64,000 bases of DNA from an uncultured Cytophagales bacterium. GTDB taxonomy: Bacteria; Bacteroidota; Bacteroidia; Cytophagales; Bernardetiaceae. The translations under genes were made by a program, and so were the position numbers. Under the pieces are notes generated by a model. That model was given only the letters and a program-made list of their open reading frames with translations, was not told the DNA's origin and did no database searches. Shown one piece after another: positions 28,250-33,791 of the stretch; position 1 is the first letter of the stretch, and every line of letters starts with the position of its first letter. The stretch lies in assembly GCA_963761725.1 (NCBI GenBank), contig CAVXHP010000006.1, positions 637,534-701,533 on the forward strand, written 5' to 3'.

Positions 28250-30325
28250 CTACTTCAAAACCCTAACTTCAATTCTTCGATTTAGTTCTCGTCCTTCCTT
28301 TTCGTCATCATTACTGGCTATTGGTCTCTCTTGTCCATATCCATTTGCTTTCAGTCTTGACTTTTCTACTCCTTTATCTACCAGAAAATCAATAATACTT
28401 TGGGCTCGCTCTTTTGATAAAATGAGATTTGTAGAAGCATTTCCACTATTATCTGTGTGTCCAATTATTTCCAAAGAAAGAGATTCATTTTCATTCAAAA
28501 AAATTGCTAATTCTTCTAAATTTTGATGCGATTCTGTTTTTAAAATAGCATTTCCTTTTTCAAAATAAATATTTTTCAGCGTAATACTCTCGTTTTTACT
28601 TACACTCAAATCATCAATTAGTTTTTGTAATAATTTTATGTTTTCTGATTGATTTTCATCTTCATAAACATTTTCCTCTTCTACATACAAATACGCATTA
28701 ATTACATAATTCCTAGAATTTTTTTGTGCTAATATATAAGGGTTTAATGAAATTTGGTCTTGATAAGCTAATCTATCTTTATGACGAATTTCTATGTTAT
28801 AAAATGTAATTTCCTGAACCGATTTATCTAGGTTGTAAAAATTATTTGAGTTAGAATCATCCTTAGCTTTGTCTTTCAAATAAATCGGAACATTGATTTT
28901 ATAATTTCCATCTTCATCTGTTTTGGTTTGAAAAGTAGTGCTGTCTATTTTATAATTTATACTTTTGAAAATAATGTTAGCATTCTGAACTGCTTTTTTC
29001 TCTAGTGTTCGTTCTCTAAATTGTCCTTTTACTTCTATCGAATCAAAAAAGAAAACTTCATAAATATCGTCCCCTCCTTGTCCATTTATACGGTTAGAAA
29101 CAAAATAACCTAATTGATTATTTTTATTATTAGAATAATCAATACTAAAATAGAGTTCATCGGCAACGCTATTAATTGGATAGGGAAGTAATAATGGATT
29201 TGTCCATTCGTTGGAAGTGGTATCAAATTCTGCCTTAAAAATATCAAATCCACCTGTCGTATTTTCTCTATTCGAACTAAAATAAAGCGTATTGTCTTTA
29301 TCCAAAAAAGGAGTTATTTCACCTGATTTTGAATTTATTTTTTCTAACAAAATAGGGTTTTCAAAATCATTTTTTATATCTTCTCTTCTTGATACAAAAA
29401 GTTCGTAGTTTCCTTTTGATTTATAATCAGAAGCAAAAATGAGTGTTTTTTTGTCGTTTGACAGACAGGCATATTCTTGAATTCCTTTTTCTTCGCTCAA
29501 TGTTTGTGAAAATAACTGTGGTTCTTGCCAAACTCCTTTTTCTCTTTTTAGAGTTTTTAAGTCTCCATTCTGGGAGATAAGAAATGTTTTATCACTACTT
29601 GTAAACTCATACTTCAAAATCTGTAAGACACTAAATTGAGAATCCAGAGACTCAGATTTGTTCCATTGCTCAATTTCTTCTATTGTTCCATCTTTTTGTA
29701 TTTGTGCATTGTAAAGCGTAAATATTTGTGTATCATAAACATCAGTAATTTTATCTTTAAAAGTAAGGCGATTACTACTATAAATTAGATTATCAGAAAA
29801 CGTAATCTTGCTTACTCCAAACTCATCAAAGGGAGAATTAACGTGAATTCCCATATTTCTGACAATATAATTCTCTGGTCTTTGATAGATTTCTAAGGCC
29901 GTTTTGAGATGAGAAAGAAGTATATCATAACTTTCTATTTTATTTTTTGAATTTTGATTAGCATAGAGTTTCAGCATCTCAAGTGCATTTCCGAAATCTT
30001 CATTTAGAAAATAGGCTTCTGCCAACCAATAAAAATAATGTGTATTTTCTTTGAGATGATTTGTATTGACAGCCTTCAATTCATTCAAAGCCTGTTCTTG
30101 TAAATGCAAGTGAAGTTTGCAGATAGCAGAATAATATTTTGCGTCTTGATGAAGATTATTTTCCTTTTTTATTTCTTCAAAATAATAAAGTGCATTTCTA
30201 TACTTTCCATTTTTGAGGTCTTCCTTTCCATTCAAAAAATACTCCTTTTCATTATAACCTATTTGTGAAAAACAAAGAGGAATATTTACAGCTATCAATA
30301 AAATTATAACTATTGTTTTTTTCAT
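28250..30325 (-). CDS. OmpA-family outer-membrane protein with TPR repeats and TolB-like beta-propeller region
   Basis: C-terminal OmpA domain (NIYFEKGNAILK...IIGHTDNSGNASTNLILSKERAQSI...RRIEVRV). Signal peptide MKKTIVIILLIAVNIPLCFSQ. The start at 30325 is preferred over 30394. Confidence 0.75.
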   Translation of the reverse strand: MKKTIVIILLIAVNIPLCFSQIGYNEKEYFLNGKEDLKNGKYRNALYYFEEIKKENNLHQDAKYYSAICKLHLHLQEQALNELKAVNTNHLKENTHYFYWLAEAYFLNEDFGNALEMLKLYANQNSKNKIESYDILLSHLKTALEIYQRPENYIVRNMGIHVNSPFDEFGVSKITFSDNLIYSSNRLTFKDKITDVYDTQIFTLYNAQIQKDGTIEEIEQWNKSESLDSQFSVLQILKYEFTSSDKTFLISQNGDLKTLKREKGVWQEPQLFSQTLSEEKGIQEYACLSNDKKTLIFASDYKSKGNYELFVSRREDIKNDFENPILLEKINSKSGEITPFLDKDNTLYFSSNRENTTGGFDIFKAEFDTTSNEWTNPLLLPYPINSVADELYFSIDYSNNKNNQLGYFVSNRINGQGGDDIYEVFFFDSIEVKGQFRERTLEKKAVQNANIIFKSINYKIDSTTFQTKTDEDGNYKINVPIYLKDKAKDDSNSNNFYNLDKSVQEITFYNIEIRHKDRLAYQDQISLNPYILAQKNSRNYVINAYLYVEEENVYEDENQSENIKLLQKLIDDLSVSKNESITLKNIYFEKGNAILKTESHQNLEELAIFLNENESLSLEIIGHTDNSGNASTNLILSKERAQSIIDFLVDKGVEKSRLKANGYGQERPIASNDDEKEGRELNRRIEVRVLK

Positions 30326-30441
30326 ATATTTCTCTAAGTCACTCAAAGACATTTTTTTCATAATTCTACAAAAATAACTAAAAAGGCTTTGCATCGGAAA
30401 TGATACAAAGCCTTTTTATGAGAAACGATTCTTTAAACTAT

Positions 30442-30645
30442 TTATTTTTCCTCTTCTTTTTGTCTTGCCATTTGCTGGTAATATTCTTTAGACAAACCTA
30501 CTTTTGCTAGATGTGCTTTTGCTTTTTTCACTTTCTCGGGAAAAAGAGATATTCCTTTAAGTTTATCTAACTCTGGATTATAAGTAACTTTTGCGTTCTT
30601 TATAGAATCACAGAACTCTTTTATTTCTTGTTCTCTAGTTTTCAT
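30442..30645 (-). CDS. Small hypothetical protein (67 aa), paralog of 30649..30831
   Basis: Same conserved core as the preceding small ORF, separated from it by 3 nt. Confidence 0.45.
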   Translation of the reverse strand: MKTREQEIKEFCDSIKNAKVTYNPELDKLKGISLFPEKVKKAKAHLAKVGLSKEYYQQMARQKEEEK

Positions 30646-30648
30646 AAT

Positions 30649-30831
30649 TTATGTCTTTTCATTTTTCTTCCTAGTAATTTCTTTAGGTAAACCATATTTT
30701 TTAATAAATTGGTTTGCCATTTCTAGTTTTTCAGGAAACAAAACCACGTTTTGTAATTTTTCTAATTCCTTATCAAAAGCTACAATAGGAGTTTTTGATT
30801 TATTTAGTTCTTGTATCTTGTCTGATTTCAT
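30649..30831 (-). CDS. Small hypothetical protein (60 aa), paralog of 30442..30645
   Basis: Shares the pattern D/PELxKLxxxxLFPEKxxxAxxxxxKxGLxKE with the downstream 67-aa ORF. Confidence 0.45.
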   Translation of the reverse strand: MKSDKIQELNKSKTPIVAFDKELEKLQNVVLFPEKLEMANQFIKKYGLPKEITRKKNEKT

Positions 30832-30835
30832 TATT

Positions 30836-31282
30836 TTATTTTTTTGTAATTAAAAATGCAGCATACTCTTTTCCTATTACGAAATTTTCCCATTCTTCGT
30901 TGTCAGTTTGAAAACCGAGTACTTCAAAATCTTTCGTAATTTCCTCCAAATTATTAGATATACCCATTCTGTAAAGTCTAGTTCTAGCCTTTGTACTTCC
31001 TGTTGCAAATATAGTAGCATTCGGATATTTTTTAATAAATGAATAAATCGTAGAGGCTACAGTAGCTAAAACTTTTTGACTATCCCCATTATTTGTAACA
31101 TTTATATCATCTATCGTTTTAGTTTTTTCGTCATAATCTCCAAAACCTAGATTGTAAATTCCTTCTGCATCTGTTTCAGTATATTCTACCATTTTACGAA
31201 TTTTCCCTTTTACGCCTTCACTTACAAATTCAAAGTGCTTACGTAAAGGTTCTGACTTATACAGATATTTTGGTTGATTCAT
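30836..31282 (-). CDS. Conserved hypothetical protein (148 aa); first gene of a compact 3-gene operon
   Basis: No recognisable catalytic motif. Contains ATIFATGSTKARTRLYRMGIS. 4-nt gap to the next ORF. Confidence 0.5.
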   Translation of the reverse strand: MNQPKYLYKSEPLRKHFEFVSEGVKGKIRKMVEYTETDAEGIYNLGFGDYDEKTKTIDDINVTNNGDSQKVLATVASTIYSFIKKYPNATIFATGSTKARTRLYRMGISNNLEEITKDFEVLGFQTDNEEWENFVIGKEYAAFLITKK

Positions 31283-31432
31283 ATTTTTTTAATTACTTCT
31301 TACCCAACAACTCATCTATTTTTTTCTCTAATAAAGATAGCTTTTCTCTTAGTTCTTGATAAAAATAAAGTTCTAAAATTAGTATATTTATGCTTCACTA
31401 AGTTAGCTTAATTTTACTAATTCCTCAAAATT

Positions 31433-31735
31433 ATGAATATAGAAACATTTTTAAATAATTATGCAGCAAAAATTATAGGTTTTTCTATGATTGTTTGTAA
31501 TTCATTATTTTTATTGCAAAATATAAAACTGTTTTATGAATATCATTTTACAAATATATTATTCTGTCTAATGATTCCTAATACAGTTTTATTTATTTCT
31601 GCTATCCTATTTTCTATAGGAATTGGTATAGGAATCTTAGTTTTTAAAGACAAAATAAATTATTTAAAATGGTCTTTGATTGATTTAGGAATTATAGTTT
31701 TAGTTTTTTTAATCGAAAATTTACTTGTAATGTAA
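31433..31735 (+). CDS. Small hypothetical membrane protein (3 predicted TM helices)
   Basis: Hydrophobicity pattern only. Confidence 0.35.
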   Translation: MNIETFLNNYAAKIIGFSMIVCNSLFLLQNIKLFYEYHFTNILFCLMIPNTVLFISAILFSIGIGIGILVFKDKINYLKWSLIDLGIIVLVFLIENLLVM

Positions 31736-31867
31736 TTATAAAAATACCTTCCAAAAAGCCGTCAAAACAAGCATTCCCAACGAAAAAGGAAGTAAATATT
31801 TTTCCAAACCTAAAACTCTTATTTTCGTTTTATTCAAAAGTCAAGATTATTCTGTAACTTTATAAAA

Positions 31868-32119: not shown

Positions 32120-32582
32120 TTTACTTTGAAACATTTTGTAACTGATGCTAATGTTCTTTTTAGTGGAAAAATTAGTGTAAACGAATAAATAGTACGACTT
32201 TTTGTTTATATACAATTTTAGCTCCCGAGTAGCTCACTTTGTTAGAACATTCAGCGAAGCAAATATGAAGAAATGATATTTATCAAAAACAGAATTGGTA
32301 ACCTAAAAGTTTATGAGATTATACACTTCGTTTAATCAAAAAGTTTGCAGCTTGTTGTTCTAAATCTTATCAATCTCTAATCAAAGCTATTATAAAGGTT
32401 AATTTATGCTACAAGGTGTAGATGAACCAAAGATACGTCCTTATTTAGCTTTATGCGATTAACTAGAAATTGAGTGAACATACATCAAGATGAAAAATTA
32501 TCTATTCATTTGATACAAGAAGGTTTTGATAAAGTAATTTCTTTGACAAACTTTTTGAGCGAAATATAAGCTCGTCATCTGG

Positions 32583-32675: not shown

Positions 32676-33791
32676 TTAACACAAAAACACCTTCCAAAAA
32701 GCCGTCAAAACAAGCATTGCAAGCGAAAAAGGCAACAAGTATTTCCAACACATGCTCATCAGTTGGTCGACTCTTAATCTTGGAAAACTCCATCGAATCC
32801 ACATCTGAATCAGCATAAAAATAATAGTTTTGCTCATTAGCCAAAAGAAAGACCACAGATAACTAGAAAAATGATTTAATTCTCCACTTGTATAAGTAGC
32901 TAATTCAAAACTACCTATGTTTGGAAAAGGTGTATTCCAACCTCCAAAAAACAAAATACTGGTCAGAAGTCCTATCAAAAGCATCATTCCATATTCTGCA
33001 AGCATCAAAAAAGCCCAACGCATTCCTGAATACTCCGTTTGAAAACCTGCTACGAGTTCCGATTCTGCTTCGGGAATATCAAAAGGCGTTCGGTTAGCTT
33101 GTGCAAGTCCTGAAATAAAGAAAATCAAGAAGACAATAAAGAAAAAAGGCATCGAAATAATATTCCAAGACAAAATTCCTCCAATATTCTGCGTTTCGAT
33201 GTTTAAAAATGAAAGTCCAAATAAATACGTCGTTTGTTCTGCAAAAATTCCTTGTGCTTTGCTTATCTCCTGCAAATCCAGAGAACCATTCCAAACCACG
33301 ACACACAAAATAGAAAGTCCTAGAGGCAATTCATACGAAACCATTTGAGCCAAAGAACGAACAGCACCGTACAAAGAAAACTTATTGGAAGAAGCCCAGC
33401 CAGCCATCAAAATCCCGATAACATCTAAGGCTACAATTCCGAGCCAAATCAGAATACCTAAAGGCATCTTGGTTTCTGTATTTGCAGAAAAAGGAATAAT
33501 CGCAAACCCAGCAAAAACAGCCATAAAAACCAAAACAGGAGCAAATTTGAACAAAAAGGTATTAGAAGAGGAGGGAATAATGTCTTCTTTGAATAATAGT
33601 TTTACAACATCAGCAAAGGTTTGTAAAAGTCCATATTTTCCTGTCTCGGTAGGACCAATACGATCTTGAATGAAAGCCGAAATTTTTCGTTCTACATAAA
33701 CACCAACAAGTGTATTAAATAAAATCAAAGAAAGTGTAAGAAATATTAGGAGAATAATAGGCATACTATTATATTTGGTAGTAAAATTCAC
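32676..33791 (-). CDS. nuoH: NADH-quinone oxidoreductase subunit H / ND1-family membrane subunit, apparently solitary
   Basis: VERKISAFIQDRIGP...GLLQTFADVVKLLFKEDIIP matches the NuoH/ND1 signature. ~8 TM helices. Start probably at M10 (33764). Confidence 0.7.
   Translation of the reverse strand: MNFTTKYNSMPIILLIFLTLSLILFNTLVGVYVERKISAFIQDRIGPTETGKYGLLQTFADVVKLLFKEDIIPSSSNTFLFKFAPVLVFMAVFAGFAIIPFSANTETKMPLGILIWLGIVALDVIGILMAGWASSNKFSLYGAVRSLAQMVSYELPLGLSILCVVVWNGSLDLQEISKAQGIFAEQTTYLFGLSFLNIETQNIGGILSWNIISMPFFFIVFLIFFISGLAQANRTPFDIPEAESELVAGFQTEYSGMRWAFLMLAEYGMMLLIGLLTSILFFGGWNTPFPNIGSFELATYTSGELNHFSSYLWSFFWLMSKTIIFMLIQMWIRWSFPRLRVDQLMSMCWKYLLPFSLAMLVLTAFWKVFLC

What the first reader, a model, noticed from the sequence alone, without database searches (positions are those of the whole stretch)
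30442..31282. Compact three-gene operon: 148-aa conserved hypothetical followed by two tandem paralogous ~60-aa proteins
The three minus-strand ORFs are separated by only 4 and 3 nt. The two small proteins are clear paralogs (…D/PELxKLxxxxLFPEKxxxAxxxxxKxGLxKE…), i.e. a local duplication. None of the three has an identifiable motif. The tight packing and duplicated small partner resemble toxin/immunity or adaptor-type modules. The operon lies between an OmpA-family gene and small membrane-protein ORFs, followed by a 550-bp ORF-free stretch.
Basis: seen in the sequence. Interest (0 to 1): 0.5.

Follow-up and report, generated by a model that had tools for sequence, protein, structure and literature searches.

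The report
GNAT-like protein with small partner genes
The three genes are one copy of a widespread, mobile and so far unstudied Bacteroidota cassette, in which an acetyltransferase-like protein (Pfam DUF6934) is always followed by a tiny basic partner protein, here in two versions; it most likely acts like a toxin–antitoxin pair, but that is untested.

Summary
The three minus-strand ORFs are real, spaced 4 and 3 nt apart, under purifying selection, and followed by a terminator-like hairpin. The 148-aa protein is a full-length member of Pfam DUF6934. A confident AlphaFold model (pLDDT 95) has a GNAT-like core that lacks the N-terminal β1-α1-α2 arm. In 80 of 80 testable loci from many Bacteroidota orders, a DUF6934 gene is followed on the same strand by a ~50-aa basic partner gene. 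An ATGA overlap is the commonest arrangement, and natural in-frame fusions exist, one of them with two partner domains. Neighbouring genes are not conserved. The cassette occurs in several copies per genome, on resistance plasmids, beside other TA genes and next to an integrase. The second small gene is not a recent local duplicate. It belongs to a separate partner subtype that elsewhere accompanies a divergent DUF6934 subclade, often as tandem doubles. Partner genes survive next to decayed DUF6934 genes, and the reverse was never seen. My best reading, with modest confidence, is a new toxin-first TA-like module with a GNAT-like effector. The main rival is a two-piece acyltransferase whose partner is an obligate or specificity subunit. 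No literature on the family was found.

The parts
30836..31282 (-). DUF6934 gene (148 aa), a GNAT-like core protein and the proposed effector or catalytic component
30649..30831 (-). Small basic partner, main-clade type ('s60', 60 aa, pI 9.6)
   Evidence: Homologous small ORFs lie directly downstream of DUF6934 in 79 of 81 copies by tblastn, and a divergent partner follows one of the other two. The profile search found 1637 relatives, none with a Pfam domain among those listed. dN/dS 0.24. pI.
30442..30645 (-). Second small partner, 's67' subtype (67 aa, pI 9.4, with a KEYYQQMARQKEEEK tail)
   Evidence: 41% identity to s60 over 46 aa. Only 12 relatives were found. They follow intact or decayed DUF6934 genes of a divergent subclade. 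64-70% identity to those relatives, 38% to s60. dN/dS 0.16.
30379..30418 (-). Terminator-like hairpin (17-bp stem plus T-rich tail) 24 nt after the last stop codon, marking the end of the operon
   Evidence: (I5) and 81: 1 site found where shuffles give 0.2 on average.
31283..31432 (-). Upstream intergenic region, presumed to hold the promoter (inferred; no clear consensus in this copy)
   Evidence: Many other loci have a Bacteroidetes-type TAnnTTTG box a short distance upstream of the DUF6934 start codon (read by eye). The window and L002 lack a clean match. The sigma-70 scan found no more sites than shuffled sequence.

Best explanation
The operon is one copy of a self-contained, horizontally mobile, Bacteroidota-specific two-component cassette. 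The first gene encodes DUF6934, a ~148-aa mildly acidic protein with a GNAT-like (acyl-CoA N-acyltransferase-like) core and a strongly conserved polar site (S21, K30, N44, D49, D59, N65, D67, R100, R102, Y104). The next gene, usually translationally coupled, encodes a ~50-aa very basic partner. I predict that it binds DUF6934 through a hydrophobic beta-strand and an amphipathic helix. I propose that the cassette works like a toxin-first type II toxin-antitoxin (addiction or defence) module: DUF6934 is the active, potentially growth-inhibiting acyltransferase-like effector, and the small protein holds it in check. The window's copy carries a second partner of a different subtype. That extra partner would neutralise, in trans, the divergent DUF6934 paralogs found in the same lineage. 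Shown here: the genes, the strictly conserved pairing, the coupling, the fusions, mobility, fold similarity and purifying selection. Inferred: physical binding, cofactor use, toxicity and neutralisation.
Confidence: 0.4

Rival explanations
1. Two-piece ('split') acyltransferase. DUF6934 is a GNAT core that lacks the N-terminal beta1-alpha1-alpha2 arm. The small partner, predicted by eye as strand-helix-helix, supplies that arm or otherwise completes the active site as an obligate, non-inhibitory subunit. Different partner subtypes (s60, s67) would give different acceptor specificities. The cassette would be an accessory enzyme, for example modifying a xenobiotic, antibiotic or cellular target, and not an addiction module.
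For: The AF2 model has no helix before residue 68, whereas canonical GNATs have alpha1-alpha2 there (established knowledge). The pairing is obligate. C-terminal fusions are frequent, one with two partner domains. Tandem partner genes recur. The whole protein is highly conserved. The cassette sits among resistance genes on Riemerella plasmids.
Against: The partner's secondary structure was not predicted with a tool. Partner genes are kept intact next to decayed cores. Contexts are TA-like and not metabolic. The repeats in P0367 lack the strand and the first helix.
Confidence: 0.3
2. Enzyme-substrate pair, or a type VII-like arrangement. DUF6934 acylates the lysine-rich small protein, whose K13 and K35 are invariant. 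This would switch the small basic nucleic-acid- or ribosome-binding factor on or off. In the extreme version the small protein is the toxin and DUF6934 is an enzymatic antitoxin.
For: The partner is very basic (median pI 10) and has invariant lysines. The fold is GNAT-like. The two genes are co-inherited.
Against: Orphan partner genes are common and conserved, which argues against a small protein that is toxic without its modifier. Stable fusions are unusual for enzyme-substrate pairs.
Confidence: 0.12
3. Non-catalytic adaptor or scaffold domain. DUF6934 is related to the N-terminal domain of virion-associated multidomain phage proteins and serves only as a protein-protein interaction module with its small partner.
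For: The Foldseek search of BFVD gave 24 hits with E at or below 1e-3 and TM 0.54-0.70, better than to any PDB GNAT. Hits include N-terminal domains of Ackermannviridae proteins and fusions to zeta-toxin, deaminase and ART domains. One relative is annotated 'unknown structural protein'.
Against: The ten conserved polar residues of DUF6934 are not conserved in the phage domain. The profile-profile link is marginal (E 0.009, probability 4.6%). DUF6934 itself is almost absent from viral collections: 1 locus in 2.9 M IMG/VR contigs and none in 50,697 phage records.
Confidence: 0.1

Closest known systems
GNAT/RHH (DUF1778) type II toxin-antitoxin systems: TacAT, AtaRT, KacAT, ItaRT
   Different: The gene order is reversed, with the GNAT-like gene first. 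The partner is ~50 aa, very basic, and has no RHH/DUF1778 match. DUF6934 lacks the alpha1-alpha2 arm and matches no Pfam GNAT family. It is no closer to the toxins than to housekeeping GNATs. No aminoacyl-tRNA acetylation has been shown.
Toxin-first type II modules (HigBA, MqsRA, HicAB) and fused toxin-antitoxins (CapRel-SJ46, EzeT); recalled from my own knowledge
   Same: The proposed effector gene is upstream and the neutraliser downstream. In the natural single-chain versions the neutralising domain is C-terminal.
   Different: The folds are unrelated. In those systems the antitoxins, or the fused C-terminal domains, have defined DNA-binding or sensor roles. None is evident here.
N-terminal domain of Ackermannviridae and jumbo-phage virion-associated multidomain proteins (e.g. 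Dickeya phage RC-2014 AHZ60251, and its LIMEstone1 relative annotated 'unknown structural protein'), of the polyvalent-protein type (PMC5512222)
   Same: These are the best structural matches found: Foldseek E 2.5e-6 to 1e-4, TM up to 0.70. The strand-strand-strand-helix-strand-helix order is the same.
   Different: The sequence relationship is not established. DUF6934's conserved polar residues are absent. The phage domains are fused to large C-terminal regions and were not seen with a small partner gene. Whether they are the GNAT family described in PMC5512222 was not verified.
Pfam DUF6934 (PF22028)
   Same: The 148-aa protein is a full-length member.
   Different: Pfam lists the family only as 'Family of unknown function'. 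The obligate small partner, the GNAT-like fold, the fusions and the mobility seen here appear in no paper I could find.

Membership tests
Pfam DUF6934 (PF22028) | Full-length HMM match above the gathering score (27 bits) | tested here: met
   193.7 bits, E 2e-57, residues 2-148 against profile positions 1-145 of 145.
GNAT (acyl-CoA N-acyltransferase) superfamily | Core mixed beta-sheet with the alpha3-beta5-alpha4 cofactor-binding unit | tested here: met
GNAT (acyl-CoA N-acyltransferase) superfamily | N-terminal beta1-alpha1-alpha2 arm | tested here: not met
   The model has only strands before residue 68 and no helices.
GNAT (acyl-CoA N-acyltransferase) superfamily | Motif A pyrophosphate-binding loop Q/R-x-x-G-x-G/A at the start of alpha3 | tested here: inconclusive
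   The equivalent loop reads T-N-N-G-D-S, with N65 invariant and G66 and D67 nearly invariant. The Gly is kept but the flanking residues are not. The spacing from this Gly to Y104 (38 residues) resembles that in RimI (36), counted by hand.
GNAT (acyl-CoA N-acyltransferase) superfamily | Sequence-profile match to GNAT families | tested here: not met
   None of the 25 Pfam families listed (of 34 found) for the 95 members at E up to 10 is an Acetyltransf_* family. hhalign to RimI gave E 0.71. hhalign to a small home-made GNAT profile was not significant.
GNAT (acyl-CoA N-acyltransferase) superfamily | Acyl-CoA binding and transferase activity | not testable with these tools
   This needs biochemistry or a cofactor-aware structure prediction.
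Type II toxin-antitoxin modules (generic) | Two small adjacent co-oriented genes conserved as a pair, often overlapping | tested here: met
   80 of 80 testable loci, with an ATGA overlap in 26 of 79.
Type II toxin-antitoxin modules (generic) | Patchy, multi-copy, mobile distribution with unconserved neighbourhoods | tested here: met
Type II toxin-antitoxin modules (generic) | One product inhibits growth and the other neutralises it by direct binding | not testable with these tools
   Only indirect evidence exists: fusions and retention of partner genes beside decayed DUF6934 genes.
Type II toxin-antitoxin modules (generic) | Antitoxin carries a DNA-binding domain (RHH, HTH, AbrB, Phd) for autoregulation | tested here: not met
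   The small proteins have no Pfam, NCBIfam or PDB-sequence match. No conserved operator-like palindrome was noticed upstream (by eye).
GNAT/DUF1778 TA family (TacAT, AtaRT, KacAT) | Upstream DUF1778/RHH antitoxin and downstream Acetyltransf-family toxin of 160-175 aa | tested here: not met
   The order is reversed, and there is no DUF1778 or Acetyltransf match.
Known anti-phage defence systems (PADLOC-DB 2.0) | Significant match of any component to a PADLOC model | tested here: not met
   Only chance-level hits were found, E about 0.01 to Avs2 and HORMA.

The most novel reading that the evidence does not exclude
DUF6934 plus its partner is a GNAT enzyme split into two polypeptides. The ~50-aa strand-helix-helix partner supplies the missing beta1-alpha1-alpha2 arm in trans, or as a C-terminal circular permutation in the natural fusions. 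Interchangeable partner subtypes, encoded in tandem as in this window, would retarget one catalytic core to different acceptors. This would be a modular, mobile acyltransferase system specific to Bacteroidota, whose fold also seeds the N-terminal domains of virion-delivered phage effector proteins.
Probability: 0.15. Interest if true: 0.75.

Novelty: new variant of a known kind. Interest (0 to 1): 0.5.

Why it matters
DUF6934 cassettes are abundant. The searches found 2105 homologous proteins and at least 556 loci in one-genome-per-species data, sometimes several per genome, and some on multidrug-resistance plasmids of the poultry pathogen Riemerella. Nothing has been published on them. If they are TA-like, they add a Bacteroidota-specific family with an atypical minimal GNAT-like effector and a new ~50-aa neutraliser. 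That would matter for plasmid and island stabilisation, persistence and possibly phage defence in a phylum whose TA repertoire is poorly characterised. If the partner instead completes the enzyme, this would be a rare natural example of a split GNAT with swappable specificity arms. Either way, the pair gives a concrete two-plasmid experiment that would assign a function to a large DUF.

Tried and rejected
- **First AF2 run.** The 21-sequence alignment gave pLDDT 57 and was discarded. The 95-sequence alignment gave pLDDT 95.
- **Sequence-level GNAT link.** An iterative search for GNATs in all fetched DNA found only 2, and the resulting profile gave nothing.
- **afdb50 fold library.** It was unavailable.
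- **Small proteins.** No Pfam or PDB match was found. The PGAP label 'DUF4197' on the Riemerella partner is not supported: 1 of 26 sequences matched at E 0.09.
- **RHH antitoxin idea.** I considered and rejected it, because the predicted strand (P-I-I-V-F) is hydrophobic and does not alternate polar residues.
- **RiPP precursor idea.** I rejected it because the partner is conserved along its whole length, fusions exist, and no transporter or peptidase gene is nearby.
- **Phage origin.** This is unlikely: no hit in 50,697 phage records and 1 locus in IMG/VR.
- **Literature.** Searches for DUF6934 and PF22028 returned nothing. TA/GNAT/Bacteroidetes and Riemerella plasmid searches returned nothing relevant.
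- **Exact-sequence look-up.** The window's 148-aa protein is not on record.

Full report
**Observation.** The window holds three minus-strand ORFs: 30836-31282 (148 aa), 30649-30831 (60 aa, 's60') and 30442-30645 (67 aa, 's67'). They are separated by 4 and 3 nt. A 17-bp-stem terminator-like hairpin with a T-rich tail lies at 30418-30379, 24 nt after the last stop codon. The scan found 1 such site where shuffles give 0.2 on average. s60 and s67 are paralogs, with 41% identity over 46 aa and E 1e-9. Against the closest relative with the same three genes (L002, an uncultured Cytophagales MAG), dN/dS is 0.10, 0.24 and 0.16. All three are therefore functional genes. The window contains only this one module.

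**Identity of the large protein.** The 148-aa protein is a full-length member of Pfam DUF6934 (PF22028, E 2e-57). It has no significant match in NCBIfam, PADLOC, PHROGs or PDB sequences. The word-seeded search found 2105 relatives, and the exhaustive representative search found 2474 clusters at 50% identity. Every named source organism belongs to Bacteroidota: Cytophagales, Flavobacteriales, Chitinophagales, Sphingobacteriales and Bacteroidales. The family is unusually conserved, at 55-70% identity across these orders. Invariant or nearly invariant polar residues are S21, K30, N44, D49, D59, N65, D67, R100, R102 and Y104.

**Fold.**
- AlphaFold2 with a 21-sequence alignment failed (pLDDT 57). 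With 95 diverse sequences it gave pLDDT 95 and pTM 0.86.
- The element order is three long antiparallel strands (16-23, 26-36, 42-51), a short hairpin strand, helix 68-85, strand 90-93, helices 98-110 and 112-118, then three strands.
- By topology the elements correspond to GNAT beta2-beta3-beta4-alpha3-beta5-alpha4-beta6-beta7. The canonical N-terminal alpha1-alpha2 arm is missing.
- The loop before alpha3 reads T-N-N-G-D-S, compared with motif A Q/R-x-x-G-x-G/A. 'RTRLYRMGI' resembles GNAT motif B. A non-significant hhalign to RimI (E 0.71) aligns Y104 with the RimI general-acid Tyr115.
- No sequence-profile link to GNAT families could be shown.
- I therefore call the protein GNAT-like at fold level, not a demonstrated GNAT member.

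**Pairing with the small protein.**
- The genome scan (one genome per species) confirmed 556 relatives, and 80 loci were kept.
- In 79 of 81 DUF6934 copies, an s60-like ORF lies on the same strand within 150 nt downstream.
- One exception sits at a contig end. The other (L080, second copy) has a divergent 51-aa partner with the same F-x-x-K-x-x-x-A-x-x-x-L...P motif. That makes 80 of 80 testable copies.
- The commonest spacing is an ATGA overlap, in 26 of 79, and most of the rest are 1-14 nt.
- Partners are ~50 aa and very basic (median pI 10), whereas DUF6934 has a median pI of about 6. K13, L23, K35 and A39 are invariant. They match no family.
- Distances between DUF6934 proteins and between their partners correlate: Mantel r 0.72, 0 of 2000 permutations reach it. 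This shows co-inheritance as a unit.
- L023 and several metagenomic proteins (P0255, P0295, P0302, P0337, P0350, P0356) are in-frame DUF6934-partner fusions. P0367 carries two partner domains in tandem.
- The reverse look-up from partner proteins gives canonical pairs. It also gives an orphan partner beside AbiJ and an R-M system, and an intact partner next to a 56-aa DUF6934 fragment inside a PemK/ParE array.

**The second small gene.**
- s67 has only 12 relatives in 5.8 billion proteins.
- In L096, four s67-type genes flank a divergent DUF6934 that is 48% identical to the window's protein: two upstream and two downstream.
- In L092, two fragmented DUF6934 genes of that subclade are each followed by an intact s67-type gene.
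- In L093-95, a 43-aa DUF6934 remnant is followed by an s67-type gene and then a UPF0175/DUF3368 pair. The same pair follows s67 in L002.
- s67 is 64-70% identical to these proteins and 38% identical to s60.
- s67 is therefore a distinct partner subtype that has been joined to a main-clade module, not a fresh tandem copy.
- The tandem is recombinogenic. In the Flexibacter MAG locus L001 (99% identical DUF6934), a single hybrid gene has the s60 body and an s67-type tail joined at the shared CTAAAGAA. A chimeric assembly cannot be excluded.

**Context.**
- The 135 immediate neighbours of the 80 loci match 153 Pfam families. None recurs more than 4 times, and many are housekeeping genes.
- Recurrent neighbours in the wider flanks are TA components: UPF0175, PIN, MNT/HepT and XRE.
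- Several genomes hold two or more copies.
- The module sits on plasmids of Riemerella anatipestifer (between ere(D) and blaOXA), Myroides and Spirosoma.
- It is almost absent from viral collections. The single IMG/VR locus places it between an S24-type repressor and a tyrosine integrase.
- In this lineage the nuoH-OmpA interval collects small cassettes. L002 has nuoH, then DUF6934-s60-s67, then UPF0175/DUF3368, then the OmpA-family gene.
- The window instead has a PIN/antitoxin cassette inserted after nuoH, flanked by a 62-nt duplication of the nuoH 3' end. The PIN gene has decayed and the antitoxin-like gene is intact.

**Interpretation.** The data establish an autonomous, mobile, strictly paired module whose two products almost certainly bind each other.

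My preferred mechanism (confidence 0.4) is a toxin-first TA-like cassette. The GNAT-like protein would be the active component and the small basic protein would restrain it. The extra s67 gene would then act as a trans-acting neutraliser of the divergent paralogs present in the same lineage. Support comes from the cassette behaviour, the TA-rich settings, and the repeated survival of partner genes beside dead DUF6934 genes, with no converse case.

Several points weigh against this reading:
- There is no functional evidence.
- The partner has no DNA-binding domain.
- The charge pattern is reversed relative to most type II pairs.
- The family is highly conserved.
- Fusions are frequent.
- The decay asymmetry is partly explained by gene size and by how the loci were sampled.

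The main rival (0.3) is a two-piece acyltransferase, in which the strand-helix-helix partner supplies the missing GNAT arm or a specificity element. Lesser rivals are an enzyme-substrate pair (0.12) and a non-catalytic adaptor related to phage virion-protein N-terminal domains (0.1).

The last rival rests on the best structural matches found anywhere. The Foldseek search of BFVD gave E down to 2.5e-6 and TM up to 0.70. The hits are uncharacterised phage proteins, including N-terminal domains of Ackermannviridae proteins, one relative of which is annotated as an 'unknown structural protein'. Their sequence relationship to DUF6934 is marginal.

**Novelty.** No paper mentions DUF6934 or PF22028. 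Known GNAT toxin systems differ in gene order, antitoxin type and toxin family (background from the papers listed). I rate this as a new variant of a known kind, with moderate interest.

Noticed in passing
window 32126-32536 (+), with 31868/31886-32119 (+): The '550-bp ORF-free stretch' is a decayed PIN-domain toxin gene: 37% identity to the intact 131-aa PIN of L001, E 4e-13, with many in-frame stops. Its upstream 77/83-aa antitoxin-like gene is intact and 96% identical to the L001 copy.
   Followed up: yes
window 31740-31801 and 32683-32744: A 62-nt direct repeat (87% identical) duplicates the 3' end of nuoH (32676-33791, minus strand) and brackets the PIN/antitoxin insertion. In L002, nuoH is followed directly by the DUF6934 operon. 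The nuoH-OmpA interval is therefore a landing site for small TA-type cassettes, and the insertion mechanism is unknown.
   Followed up: partly
L001 1300-1945: In the 99%-identical Flexibacter MAG copy, the DUF6934 stop codon is lost (160 aa, overlapping the next gene). Only one small gene is present. It is an s60/s67 hybrid joined at the shared CTAAAGAA, from either recombination between the tandem paralogs or an assembly chimera.
   Followed up: partly
L096 3753-5187; L092 3125-4204: L096 holds an array of two s67-type small genes, a divergent DUF6934, then two more s67-type genes, all with near-identical PKEYYEQMAKKNE tails. In L092, two fragmented DUF6934 genes are each followed by an intact s67-type gene.
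   Followed up: partly
L086 34893-36488 (Dickeya phage RC-2014) and 356 phage records: The DUF6934 model's best structural matches (TM up to 0.70) are uncharacterised phage proteins. They include the N-terminal ~150 aa of large Ackermannviridae proteins (a relative in LIMEstone1 is annotated 'unknown structural protein') and fusions to zeta-toxin, deaminase and ART domains. These proteins have no Pfam match, and the profile link to DUF6934 is marginal.
   Followed up: partly
L085 15602-16243 (Riemerella plasmid NZ_CP072192); L084 3095-3745 (4.8-kb plasmid NZ_CP081933): The module is embedded in multidrug-resistance regions, between ere(D) and blaOXA. On the 4.8-kb plasmid the DUF6934 match is split into two pieces while the small gene is intact. 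PGAP's label 'DUF4197 domain-containing protein' for the small partner looks spurious.
   Followed up: partly
window 30325-30394: The mechanically listed start of the OmpA-family ORF (30394) overlaps the terminator hairpin of the DUF6934 operon. The real start is probably the downstream Met before the signal-peptide-like MKKTIVIILLIAV..., as in the L001 and L002 orthologs.
   Followed up: no
window 31433-31735 (+): This 100-aa multi-pass membrane-type ORF lies between the DUF6934 operon and the nuoH fragment. It is conserved at only 39% identity in L001 and absent in L002. It matches no family, and whether it is a real gene is unclear.
   Followed up: no
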